Shown here in pieces: positions 16,827 through 24,252 of a stretch of DNA of 64,000 nucleotides (its first letter is position 1; the number at the start of each line of letters is the position of its first letter). The translations under genes and the position numbers were made by a program. The notes beneath the pieces are model-generated. The model was not told the origin of the DNA, did no database searches, and saw only the letters and a list, made by a program, of their open reading frames with translations. The stretch comes from Promethearchaeota archaeon Loki_b31 (lineage in GTDB: Archaea; Asgardarchaeota; Lokiarchaeia; Sigyniarchaeales; SOKP01): NCBI GenBank assembly GCA_005222975.1, contig NJBI01000007.1, forward strand, positions 1 through 64,000, read 5' to 3'.

Positions 16827-17483
16827 GTGATTTATAAAATGTCATCTAATAGGAAAATTAAAGAAGAAATAATTGCCTTACTCATAGATCATGTTCGGAT
16901 TATTTACTCTATTATTAGCGACATGGGCGTGTATTACACCACCTGGGCAGAAGACTTTGAGGCAAATAAAAAAAGTTTAGAAAAGAAAAAAAGTAAAATG
17001 CAATTATCAGAAGAAGAAGGTGACGAGCTAAAAATTCGCTTAATACAGAACTTTTCAGAGGCAGAAGCTTTTAATCTCGGAGATTACGTAGCACTAGTGT
17101 TGAAGATGGATAATGTTATTAATTATCCCCTCGAATTTGTCGATATGTTAACAAAAATTCGCTTAACTGGTAAAAGTGCAGATGAGATTAAGAAGAAATA
17201 CCACAAGTTAATAAACCAAATTATGGAAATGGCTGGTATCTTGAAAACTGCGATAAAAAACTTAAGGGATAATCCGGATAAAGTCTTTGATAACACGACT
17301 ACAATTCATGAACTTGAATCTGAAATTGACAAAACTTACAGGCAATTTCTTGAGTTTTTATATTCTAATGTTGAAGACATAAGAACTTTACTACGTATCA
17401 GGGATAGTATTGTGCTACTGGAGCAGATGGCGGACCGTATCCACGACATTTCAGACCTTATGAGAATTTTAATTTATAGTTAA
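16827..17483 (+). CDS. DUF47/PhoU-like helical protein (phosphate transport regulator family)
   Basis: Two helical repeats with EEEGDELK and ELESEIDK; EQMADRIHDISD. Confidence 0.8.
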   Translation: MIYKMSSNRKIKEEIIALLIDHVRIIYSIISDMGVYYTTWAEDFEANKKSLEKKKSKMQLSEEEGDELKIRLIQNFSEAEAFNLGDYVALVLKMDNVINYPLEFVDMLTKIRLTGKSADEIKKKYHKLINQIMEMAGILKTAIKNLRDNPDKVFDNTTTIHELESEIDKTYRQFLEFLYSNVEDIRTLLRIRDSIVLLEQMADRIHDISDLMRILIYS

Positions 17484-20400
17484 TTTAATAAATTAATTGC
17501 TTGATAAATTAATTTTCTTAATTGATCTTTACTTATATTAATATTGATATAAATACTTAATATTTTTTTAGAAATTTTAGTAGGACTTGGAGTTTCATTA
17601 CGATTGAGTGGTTCTGAAATATATTGAATTATATGTATAAGCATTTTTAAGTATTGAATTATGGGATATGTAAAGTTTTGATCTTGTAAAGATATTCTTA
17701 ATCTTAAAAACTCGGGAATATCAACAGATACTAAATCTTTAAGAATTTGATCATTATCAAAATAAAAATTGTTATCTTTAAGGATTTTTAATATTCGGTT
17801 ATAAATTATTTCTCTTAAGTCGGCAGGAAAAATTGAAATAACCCAATTTCCATTTTTGTTTTTAACAATAATCTGATTAAATTTTTTAATATTTTTATAC
17901 CAAAGATCGAAATCAAGCTTCTGACTAATCATATATATTTTAATATGTTTTTTAATAGTTTCAGGTTTAGGATTGATACCATATTTTAATTTTATATAAT
18001 TTCTAATCAGTTCTAAATTACCTAATATTGTAAATAGTTTTTTAAAAATAATAGCGAATTTTTCTTGATATGGAAATTGTTTAAATGTTAAAGAATCTTG
18101 GATTGCATTCTCAATAGTAGAATCATTAATAAGATATCCATATTTAAGACAAGTTTTTAAAATAAATTGTTCAAACTCTTTTGAATACAATAATACTTTT
18201 TTATCGTTTTTTATCATATAATCATTAACATCGGCAAATACTTTTTTAGATTTTATTTCATTAGATAAGCTTATTAAAATTATACCAATATAATTTCTTC
18301 TGTAAATCCATTTTTTAGGTTTAATAATTTCAATAAACTTTCTAATGTGGTTTTTTTTTGAAATTTTAACATAATATTTAACATCCGTTCTTTTATCTTC
18401 ATATATTTTAGTTGTCTCAATATTTAAAATATTACACATATTTTTAAAATCTTCTACTAAAGGTTTTGAGGAATTAGTGAAATCAATTTGAATATGCTTA
18501 GCTCGTTTTAAAACATAAATAGAACCATCTGTATCAAATAGACCTCTTAAACAACAAATTACTAAATTACGAGAATTTATGATTATTTTAGGTACAGACA
18601 CTTGATGTAAAACTTTATTTCCTTCAATTAACCCAAAAGACTCAAGCTCTTCAACAATTTCCTTTCCATAAATTATAAGTTGTATGCCTTTTGATACTTT
18701 TGAAGGAATGTAAGAAGGAGTTTTATGAAATATCTTTGTCATTAATTTTGAAACATAATCAACATAATCTGATTCATCAATTCGATTAAGAGTGATTGTT
18801 AAACCTATGTTAAAATTTAGATTGCCATCACCTAATATAATACCACACATTTCTGATAAAATCCCGTTCATTATAAGTCCTAATTTTTTATACGGATTTC
18901 TTTTTTTTAAAGGATGTATATTAAAATGTAAACGTATTTGGTCAATATGATGATGTCCTAAACCAGTTAAATTTTGAATGTCTACTAGTTTATCATATTC
19001 TTCGAATAGAATTAAATATATTGCTAAAATATATTTTTTGATCAATAGATCTTGCTTGCTTGTAAGATCGAGTAATAAAGATTTGTTATTTAAATTTTGA
19101 TAAACATTATTTATGATAATATCAAAAAACTCTTCTTTAGGATGGTTTAAACGAAAATTAAAAATGACTATTTTATTATTTTTTAGTATTGTATAAATAT
19201 TATTAAAAATCTTTTCTCTACAACTAACCCAATTATTAGCCATAAAGAATTTTACATATAAATTTTGACTTCCTATTAATTGAATTATTGTTTTTCTTAC
19301 TCTTTCTTGATTAAAATATTCAATTTTTTCTAATATCTCCTTATTAGAATATTTTTTCTTTCCCATTTTATGATAGTATTTTAATTGTTCAATGACGATT
19401 TTTTTCAATTCCTTAAATTTATCCGTGTTGGCAATTAATTTCTTCTTTTTAACTTGATTTTTAGTAGGGGTTTTCTCATTTTCTACAGCTTCAATAAGAT
19501 TAGAGATTTCTGAAGACCATTTAATCTGGATTTTTCCATTTTCTTGTTCTTTTCTTAACTCTTTATATTTCTGCGAAATGTGTTTAAAAAATTTGCTACG
19601 CACTCGAATAACGAAAAACCTGTTCATAAGTTCCCACAAATGATTATAAAAATAATCTTTAAAAGTCCGAATATTTGCTAATAATTCTAAATGGATCGGT
19701 CCTAAACCCTGTAGTCTTTCTGTTAAGGATTTTAATCTATTCTTTTCTATTTCAGTAAGTTTTTCGTATTGAGACTTTTCATATAATTCCAAAAACTTTC
19801 GAGTCAAATCCTTGAACTTGTTATAACTCTCAAGGGCTTTTTTTAACTCGGATTTAAGCTCAGCGTTGCATTCTTCCTCAGAAGACTCTTTTATCCATTG
19901 TTTAAGGGTTGTTTTCCAACTCTCTTCTTCAATTTCTTTTATTTTTTCACTTTCACTTTTAGAATTTTTAATCTTTTCCGATCCTAATTCTCGTTGCTCT
20001 AACCATTGGCTATAACCATTTGTTTTTTTTTTAGAATATATAGGTCTTCTGCCCGTTTCTAGGCGATATAACTCTTGAAGATGTTCGGTTTCCTCTTCGT
20101 CCGATTCTTCACTTACTAGCTTTGTACTTTCCTCAAGGAAATCTTTATTAGCTTCGGATTCGCTTTCGATAGCATCTAATTCTGGTTTACAAACTTCTAA
20201 ATTTTCTTTATTCTCAACATTTTTATTTGAATCTTGTTCGTTAATCTCTAAATCGTGTTTTTTAAGCTTTTCATTCACAATCGATTCTTGATCTTTTTCA
20301 ATTATTTTTTCTAATTTCTCTTCAAACTTAGTTGTTTCTATGGCTTCCTCTACTCTCGCATCTATCTCTTCTTGCGATTCCCCTTGTTGAACCAATTTCT

Positions 20401-23901: not shown

Positions 23902-24102
23902 TTTTTTTTACTAACTTTTAATTAATTATTTTTTCTAATAATATTATAAATTCGTTATTTATAAAAGGAAAAAGAAGACGATAAAATTAAAAATGAGTCG
24001 ATCTGGTAATAGGTCTAAAACGACAAGCAAGAAGTATGTGAACCAATCGAACAGAATTCCAAACGCAAAGACAATGTATAAGAACCCCAGAATCCAAGAA
24101 TC

Positions 24103-24252
24103 TTATTGGGGTTCATAATTGGGACGATTCTCCTAATTTGGGGCGGTAATCGGTATCGATATAAGATGATTGGCGTTATTGTCGCGTCCTTCGTACTTTT
24201 GGCTGTGTGCGGGCTTAACACTGGGATTAAATACTTCAGGATTTTTAGATAA
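24103..24252 (+). pseudogene. N-terminally truncated paralogue of the pilin-like protein
   Basis: LLGFIIGTILLIWGGNRYRYKMIGVIVASFVLLAVCGLNTGIKYFRIFR* aligns with LFGLVVGALLLFFGGRPFKSKGLKILLISIL; in-frame stop at 24079; only a TTG at 24106 is available upstream of the first helix. Confidence 0.6.

What the first reader, a model, noticed from the sequence alone, without database searches (positions are those of the whole stretch)
17480..24252. Pilin-like protein + HerA/VirB4 ATPase + giant acidic protein with a C-terminal LAGLIDADG nuclease: candidate undescribed Asgard export/mobility module
Seen: three co-oriented, closely spaced genes between housekeeping loci. They encode a small two-helix hydrophobic protein, a HerA/VirB4-type ATPase, and a 1361-aa protein with a very acidic repeat-bearing N-terminus and a basic C-terminal LAGLIDADG domain. 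Known: small pilins plus a VirB4-like ATPase form the core of type IV secretion and the crenarchaeal Ced DNA-import system; LAGLIDADG domains normally sit in inteins or introns. Inference: this could be a minimal secretion or polymorphic-effector system delivering a nuclease, or a selfish element using the nuclease for homing. The acidic N-terminus might self-inhibit the nuclease as a DNA mimic. A spindle-shaped provirus remnant (two-helix capsid protein plus ATPase) is an alternative. No integrase or VirB6/CedA-like gene is visible.
Basis: partly seen in the sequence, partly recalled or inferred. Interest (0 to 1): 0.85.

Follow-up and report, generated by a model that had tools for sequence, protein, structure and literature searches.

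The report
Asgard homing elements with swappable nucleases
This is one partly decayed copy of an apparently undescribed family of mobile elements in Loki-type Asgard archaea: they carry no integrase, often lodge in the ends of host genes and mend them with a replacement end, and pair a shared ATPase motor and acidic stalk protein with an interchangeable DNA-cutting tip that goes with the insertion site.

Summary
Observation largely confirmed, reading revised. The insert (17454-24318) sits in the 3' end of a DUF47/PhoU-like gene, supplies a recoded 30-nt end, and displaces the original end to 24319-24348; 15 congeners have the empty site. The 96-aa 'pilin' is a deletion chimera (small membrane protein + tail of an M50 protease gene). 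The giant belongs to a family found in 37 of 135 genomes of the family, up to about 10 copies per genome: acidic stalk, conserved helical core, then a variable nuclease tip (LAGLIDADG, HNH, others). The tip tracks the insertion site, not the core, and four tips also occur free-standing at the same site in other genomes. I saw no integrase, no Hint domain and no consistent immunity gene. The ATPase is an own HerA/VirB4-type clade with a DUF8128-like N-terminus. Best reading: homing-endonuclease cassettes coupled to a membrane motor that may aid cell-to-cell spread. Homing is well supported by anatomy; transfer is inferred; no activity is shown. The scan noted pieces of this family before on other contigs and genomes. 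I found no published description.

The parts
16827..17483 (+). Host DUF47/PhoU-like gene, the target; kept intact by a replacement 3' end
17454..17483 (+). Element-supplied recoded 3' end of the host gene (DLMRILIYS*), 20 of 30 nt identical to the displaced original end; 17452-17498 is 94% identical to the DUF47 end of congener G049
17480..21565 (-). Giant protein, 1361 aa: acidic stalk, conserved core, nuclease tip
17483..19510 (-). Variable tip (about residues 686-1361), basic, unique to this site in the genome
18311..18862 (-). Two-motif LAGLIDADG domain (about residues 902-1085), catalytic acidic residues present; no Hint domain
19511..20080 (-). Conserved core (residues 496-685): short ETGxRPIY-type motif plus helical bundle; 80-94% identical to copies with unrelated tips; the swap point
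20081..21565 (-). Acidic stalk (residues 1-495) with 18-aa repeats at 21135-21404; no predicted membrane segment
21623..23587 (-). HerA/VirB4-superfamily ATPase, 654 aa; N-terminal 270 aa DUF8128-like; intact motifs; dN/dS about 0.2-0.3
23611..23901 (-). Chimeric 96-aa ORF made by deletion: 23734-23901 from the small membrane protein gene, 23611-23737 from the 3' end of the M50-protease gene
23980..24097 (.). Fragment of a membrane-protein gene that lies beside the small gene in related elements (scar)
24102..24252 (+). 3' remnant of a second small membrane protein gene, without start codon
24319..24348 (+). Displaced original 3' end of the host gene (DVMRVLLYQ*), followed by the normal spacer to atpK

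Best explanation
A family of integrase-free homing cassettes. SHOWN: the element interrupts a host gene near its end and restores it with a diverged copy of that end; the nuclease tip is tied to the site, while stalk, core and upstream genes are exchanged between sites; the same tips exist without the stalk. INFERRED (about 0.8): the tip is a homing endonuclease that cuts the empty allele near the junction, the occupied allele is immune because its target is split and recoded, and repair from the occupied allele copies the cassette. INFERRED (about 0.45): the shared module (HerA/VirB4-type ATPase, M50 intramembrane protease or fused membrane domain, small membrane proteins, TFIIB-like regulator) solves the problem that homing needs two alleles in one cell, by moving the stalk-tagged nuclease and/or DNA between related cells; the acidic stalk and core would be the handle for the motor. 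The module spreads among sites by recombining in or near the core onto resident homing endonuclease genes. The window's copy has lost its protease, regulator and intact small protein, so it can at most home on its own or with help from other copies.
For: Empty site in 15 of 19 congeners with sequence past the gene (one has another insert, three have other neighbours or end early). Gene-end duplication with divergence here and at four other sites: 5' end of ribosomal protein S8, 3' ends of uvrC-like and lpdA-like genes, 5' end of a radical SAM gene (gene names from my own recognition). Same-site pairs have related tips (541-1353 bits) while different-site pairs have median 0; at each of eight same-site pairs the tip is as or more alike than the core (leuS site 74 vs 30%, smc site 68 vs 30%), and 94 of 98 pairs with core identity of 70% or more have unrelated tips. 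Free-standing tips at the same site as fused ones, 81-92% identical, at four sites. Tips are homing-type: LAGLIDADG_3 in 18 of 56, PHROG HNH and other endonuclease families in many others. Purifying selection on tips, ATPase, core and protease. No integrase within any element examined. ATPase N-terminus resembles DUF8128 of T4SS-type ATPases, TM 0.62-0.66; motor domain Z 27.6 to VirB4 and 23.3 to TrwB; some relatives carry 6-8 fused membrane helices; protease keeps HExxH and a conserved Asp.
Against: No cleavage, expression or transfer is shown. Same tip at same site could partly reflect vertical descent with loss, and the pairs are not independent (three of the nine pairs are near-identical strains). 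Exceptions exist: related tips (39-66%) at apparently different sites (L111/L114/L124, L136/L138, L042/L056), and one site (L121/L123) is intergenic without a gene-end duplication. The motor domain is as close to DndH (Z 30.1) and HerA (Z 25.6) as to VirB4, and the best defence-library hit is Mad8. No VirB6/CedA channel or relaxase was recognised. The small protein family is in 86 of 135 genomes, mostly at a conserved chromosomal locus without the ATPase, and gave no pilin match. Free-standing tips could be deletion products rather than precursors.
Confidence: 0.55

Rival explanations
1. Polymorphic toxin without immunity proteins: the ATPase exports the giant, the tip cuts a conserved site in the chromosome of related cells and kills or stalls them; the producer is protected because its own site is split and recoded. 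Spread follows from killing, not from copying.
For: Constant N-terminal part with swapped nuclease C-termini and repeated cores; acidic-leader gene right after the ATPase in most loci, with tandem leader-bearing genes in L036; membrane-linked ATPase and protease.
Against: No conserved small gene follows the tips; many are tail to tail with host genes within 3-30 bp. The same tips occur free-standing with no export part and under purifying selection. Gene-end replacement is the signature of homing cassettes.
Confidence: 0.18
2. Two separate things: ordinary free-standing homing endonuclease genes, and a hitchhiking cargo (remnant of a transfer system) that fuses to them by recombination and gains mobility, with no functional link between motor and nuclease.
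For: Tips exist and are conserved without the module; other N-termini are fused to the same tip at one site (L163); the window copy persists after losing the protease and regulator; many degenerate copies.
Against: In-frame fusion of stalk, core and tip is kept in about 60 giants over four genera, directly behind the ATPase; a second subfamily pairs the ATPase with a GIY-YIG nuclease; dN/dS below 0.5 on core and ATPase.
Confidence: 0.17
3. An intracellular motor-nuclease defence system (like HerA-partner, DndFGH or MADS modules) aimed at foreign DNA, with variable specificity tips.
For: Best structural match DndH C-domain, Z 30.1; Mad8 profile E 1.8e-14 and anti-phage HerA profiles.
Against: Does not explain why the tip follows the chromosomal site, the gene-end replacement, or up to ten copies at housekeeping genes rather than in defence islands. 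No giant, protease or regulator hit in the defence library.
Confidence: 0.07
4. Provirus remnant, ICE, or intein.
For: Imperfect direct repeat at the ends resembles integration into a gene's 3' end; weak sequence match to the STIV packaging ATPase.
Against: No Hint or intein-splicing hit and no C-terminal splice motif; no relative in viral contigs; no capsid match for the small protein; the genome's single detected tyrosine integrase is on another contig; G004 holds several copies and no detected integrase (83% complete).
Confidence: 0.03

Closest known systems
Free-standing homing endonucleases, including cassettes that replace a host gene's end (fungal mitochondrial atp6/cob type; T4 Seg/Mob intronless homing)
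   Same: Homing-type nuclease outside an intron or intein, site-linked, next to a duplicated host gene end. Partial C-terminal duplications of atp6 and cob flanked by LAGLIDADG and GIY-YIG ORFs are described in PMC6279837; intronless homing and marker exclusion in PMC2988022.
   Different: Here the nuclease is the tip of a 900-1800 aa protein with a shared acidic stalk and core, several nuclease classes are interchangeable on one chassis, both 5' and 3' gene ends are replaced, and a conserved ATPase/protease/regulator module travels along.
Ced/Ted DNA-transfer systems and minimal T4SS (PMC9905601; Patescibacteria T4SS, PMC12102498)
   Same: HerA/VirB4-type ATPase near small membrane proteins; DUF8128-like N-terminal domain; in one subfamily a second, degenerate ATPase with membrane helices.
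   Different: No CedA/VirB6 channel recognised, no pilin match, mobile and multi-copy, always tied to a nuclease.
Polymorphic toxin systems (from my own knowledge)
   Same: Constant N-terminus, swapped nuclease C-termini, recombination at a conserved pre-tip domain.
   Different: No adjacent immunity gene; the tip follows the chromosomal site; LAGLIDADG tips with long DNA-binding parts.
Aloposons of Heimdallarchaeum (PMC8813620)
   Same: Asgard mobile elements with an ATPase gene and giant protein genes, integrating downstream of the giant genes.
   Different: Aloposons use tRNA sites, MinD/ParA ATPases and tandem 3000-6000 aa proteins. Here no tRNA lies at the sites, the ATPase is HerA/VirB4-type, and the giant ends in a nuclease.
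HerA-NurA, DndFGH, MADS and other HerA-partner systems
   Same: Motor fold.
   Different: N-terminus is DUF8128-like rather than the HerA barrel; NurA not found in this genome (92% complete); other DUF87 ATPases score higher as housekeeping candidates.

Membership tests
Free-standing homing endonuclease cassette | Nuclease of a homing family with catalytic residues | tested here: met
   LAGLIDADG_3 above cut-off, two motifs with acidic residues
Free-standing homing endonuclease cassette | Occupied and empty alleles of one site among relatives | tested here: met
Free-standing homing endonuclease cassette | Target interrupted or recoded in the carrier (gene-end replacement) | tested here: met
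   20 of 30 nt repeat here; four further sites
Free-standing homing endonuclease cassette | Cleaves the empty allele and not the occupied one; biased inheritance | not testable with these tools
   needs biochemistry or crosses
Intein | Hint splicing domain with terminal splice residues inside a host protein | tested here: not met
   no Pfam Hint/intein hit for the window's giant, no H-N-C/S/T motif
ICE / integrated virus | Element-encoded integrase | tested here: not met
   tyrosine integrase search in six genomes: none in or near an element (nearest about 60 kb away); serine recombinases and transposases were not searched by family
ICE / integrated virus | Relaxase and mating-pore channel | tested here: inconclusive
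   no hit in Pfam/NCBIfam for the element genes scanned; archaeal relaxases are poorly known (PMC9905601)
ICE / integrated virus | Excised circular form | tested here: inconclusive
   no such joint among contigs of four runs; contigs drop rare forms
Ced/Ted or T4SS | VirB4-like ATPase | tested here: inconclusive
   fold shared with VirB4, DndH, HerA and TrwB; far below NCBIfam cut-offs for CedD and VirB4
Ced/Ted or T4SS | VirB2/CedA1/TedC pilin | tested here: inconclusive
   profile of 20 small proteins gave no pilin hit in PDB or PHROGs; such pilins can lack sequence similarity; no structure model made
Ced/Ted or T4SS | VirB6/CedA channel | tested here: inconclusive
   the multi-pass protein beside the ATPase is an M50-type protease; fused membrane domains of some ATPases were not classified
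Polymorphic toxin | Constant N-terminus with variable nuclease C-terminus | tested here: met
Polymorphic toxin | Cognate immunity gene directly downstream | tested here: not met
   downstream genes are mostly host genes, often convergent; here a 4-bp overlap with the host gene
Polymorphic toxin | Export and toxicity to neighbours | not testable with these tools
   needs experiment
Housekeeping HerA (HerA-NurA) | HAS barrel and NurA partner, single conserved copy | tested here: not met
   DUF8128-like N-terminus; patchy and multi-copy; no NurA beside it, none found in the genome
Aloposon | tRNA target, MinD/ParA ATPase, tandem 3000-6000 aa genes | tested here: not met
Fusellovirus-like provirus | Capsid protein, viral neighbours, integrase | tested here: not met

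The most novel reading that the evidence does not exclude
A self-transmissible gene drive of Asgard archaea: an integrase-free element whose membrane motor delivers a site-specific homing nuclease (and template DNA) into related cells, where cutting of the empty allele either installs the element or harms the non-carrier, and which changes target by swapping nuclease tips on a common stalk. It would be a new class of mobile element joining homing, cell-to-cell transfer and polymorphic-toxin-like modularity.
Probability: 0.35. Interest if true: 0.93.

Novelty: new variant of a known kind. Interest (0 to 1): 0.8.

Why it matters
It points to a common, apparently undescribed route of DNA mobility in Loki-type Asgard archaea that needs no integrase. 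Homing needs two alleles in one cell, so these elements are indirect evidence of cell-to-cell DNA exchange in the closest prokaryotic relatives of eukaryotes and name a candidate motor for it. The family is also a natural library of dozens of long-target nucleases of several classes, each with its probable target readable from the empty allele, which makes the claim directly testable in vitro. The recoded gene ends alter conserved host proteins and may drive recombination of flanking operons.

Tried and rejected
Misassembly: rejected. Intein, provirus, housekeeping HerA, aloposon, tRNA targeting: rejected. The core has no usable fold match: best Z 5.4 in PDB, TM below 0.4 in the Atlas, no feature hit; this does not show a new fold. 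The tip had no PDB sequence hit and no relative at the DUF47 site in other species. Promoter and terminator scans were at chance level and use a bacterial consensus. Contigs of four runs showed no joint for a circle or for the empty site; contigs cannot show absence. No RNA holder was listed. The complex prediction of ATPase with core could not be run: the machine was unreachable five times. The degenerate 1280-aa ATPase gave only a short, weak profile match to the active one (probability 64%). A locus search with the ATPase alignment failed for lack of conserved words. Literature searches found no description of this family; the library lacks most subscription journals. GIY-YIG-like and PD-(D/E)xK-like labels for some tips rest on motifs I read by eye, not on database hits.
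Full report
Observation. The three minus-strand ORFs are present as described. The ATPase hits DUF87 and the giant hits LAGLIDADG_3, both above cut-off. 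The giant is 34-47% acidic over 500 residues, then basic, has no membrane segment, and carries two LAGLIDADG motifs near residues 908 and 1007 with about 280 residues after the domain. Relatives are labelled Promethearchaeota or Lokiarchaeota.

The 'pilin' is a scar. In intact relatives the gene before the ATPase is a 252-aa membrane protein with M50-type hits and invariant HExxH and Asp. The window's 96-aa ORF matches a small membrane protein gene over 23734-23903 and the tail of the protease gene over 23611-23737; in L088 and L035 these lie about 3 kb apart, with a 120-aa membrane gene, a 219-aa gene and a TFIIB-like gene between them. The join is a 4-bp microhomology. Further scars fill 23980-24306. 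The same arrangement is in other assemblies at 98-99.8%, so it is a real, decayed copy. The small protein family is widespread (86 of 135 genomes), mostly at a fixed chromosomal locus beside a FEN1/XPG-like gene, and gave no pilin match.

Boundaries. In 15 congeners DUF47 is followed directly by atpK. In the window the gene ends with a recoded 30-nt tail at 17454-17483, while the tail found in the close relatives stands at 24319-24348, 20 of 30 nt alike. The recoded tail and the next 18 nt match the DUF47 end of G049 at 94%, which suggests it was captured from another lineage. The same pattern of a duplicated, diverged host gene end occurs at other sites: 5' end of S8 (L035), 3' ends of uvrC-like (L127) and lpdA-like (L137) genes, 5' end of a radical SAM gene (own genome, C44); one site is intergenic. 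Host gene names are my recognition of the sequences.

The family. The giant has at least ten relatives in this genome and its core is found in 37 of 135 genomes of the family, in four genera. The ATPase clade is distinct (110 clusters at E below 1e-30) and nearly confined to this family within the phylum sample (27 of 68 there, 4 of 232 elsewhere). Two chassis types occur: TFIIB-like, protease, ATPase, giant; and TPR, a 1280-aa degenerate ATPase with membrane helices, ATPase, giant. After the core, tips vary: LAGLIDADG in 18 of 56, HNH and other endonuclease families in others; one tip scored an exonuclease family and some have no database hit.

The key pattern. Tips follow the site. All nine same-site pairs found automatically (three of them near-identical strains) share the tip; different-site pairs have median score 0, with a few exceptions. 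At shared sites the tip is as or more alike than the core, while 94 of 98 pairs with similar cores have unrelated tips; the window's core is 80-94% identical to nine copies with unrelated tips. At four sites the same tip stands alone in one genome and fused to stalk and core in another, 81-92% identical. Tips, core, ATPase and protease show dN/dS of about 0.2-0.45. These counts are not independent samples, but the direction is the same at every site examined. So the nuclease belongs to the locus and the chassis moves among nucleases.

The motor. The model (pLDDT 87) matches DndH, VirB4, HerA and TrwB about equally in the motor domain. The N-terminal 270 residues resemble DUF8128 of T4SS-type ATPases of Patescibacteria. 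Some relatives have six to eight fused membrane helices, and 41 of 57 ATPases are followed by a gene with a strongly acidic start. No integrase lies in or near any element checked, no tRNA at the sites, no viral relative, and NurA was not found.

Mechanism. Established: homing endonucleases cut alleles that lack them and are copied by repair, also as free-standing genes (PMC2988022); duplicated gene ends beside such ORFs are known in fungal mitochondria (PMC6279837). Inferred: the tip here cuts the empty DUF47 end, and the carrier is immune by splitting and recoding. More weakly inferred: the membrane-linked motor, protease and regulator bring nuclease or DNA into related cells. A toxin reading with immunity by target loss differs only in the outcome for the recipient and cannot be excluded. 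The window's copy keeps motor and nuclease but has lost the rest.

Comparison and novelty. It meets the testable features of a free-standing homing cassette and fails those of intein, integrase-driven element, provirus, aloposon and immunity-paired toxin. Papers on Asgard mobile elements do not describe it (PMC11529989, PMC8813620). Earlier notes of this scan saw single copies or single features; the link between tip and site, the chassis swap and the chimeric nature of the small ORF were tested here. Verdict: a real, apparently undescribed element family; new variant of homing cassette, possibly a new class if transfer is shown. Interest 0.8.

Noticed in passing
L070:8402-8448 (G049): This congener has the element-type DUF47 end plus the same next 18 nt but no element; its DUF47 is 90-92% like the window's clade while the ATP synthase genes after it are only 65-75% like any relative. 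A recombination tract starting at the same point, or a chimeric contig.
   Followed up: partly
L078:6957-8261 (G056): A different 435-aa insert between DUF47 and atpK.
   Followed up: no
L039:1349-5342, L211, L212, L219, L220: A second subfamily: a GIY-YIG-type gene upstream of the same ATPase clade, just after a thermosome gene, in five genomes.
   Followed up: partly
L036:7344-14339 (G017): ATPase with fused membrane domain followed by several genes with similar charged N-terminal leaders, one of them a LAGLIDADG nuclease; looks like an array of substrates.
   Followed up: partly
L190, L191, L193, L199, L203 (about 1490-2200): Conserved chromosomal pair of the 74-aa small membrane gene and a convergent 120-aa membrane gene beside a FEN1/XPG-like gene in most genomes of the family; function unknown.
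   Followed up: partly
own genome C44:8100-16764: Cassette in the 5' end of a radical SAM gene with a free-standing nuclease, small ribbon-helix-helix-like genes and membrane or secreted genes, but no ATPase.
   Followed up: partly
own genome C15:23316, C24:15994, C87:48314, C94:31410: The short motif at the start of the core (ETGKxAIW...T..F..W type) also occurs in four unrelated host proteins; possibly a small interaction module.
   Followed up: no
L106 and L104 against window 16900-25400: In one other assembly the giant gene is 99.8% identical while the ATPase 3' half is about 96% and atpK about 98%; recent exchange, or merging of copies by the assembler.
   Followed up: partly
window:14981-16622: Three VIT1/CCC1-like membrane gene pieces; the ORF at 16344-16622 (92 aa) is about 250-265 aa in relatives, so it looks frameshifted here.
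   Followed up: no
L034:1-10483 (G017): Island next to an element with an Hsp70-like gene, an 873-aa HerA-like ATPase and a metallo-beta-lactamase-fold gene; possible defence system.
   Followed up: no
L064:3810-5309 (own genome C65:41809-43308): Group II intron-like reverse transcriptase near the intact small membrane gene.
   Followed up: no
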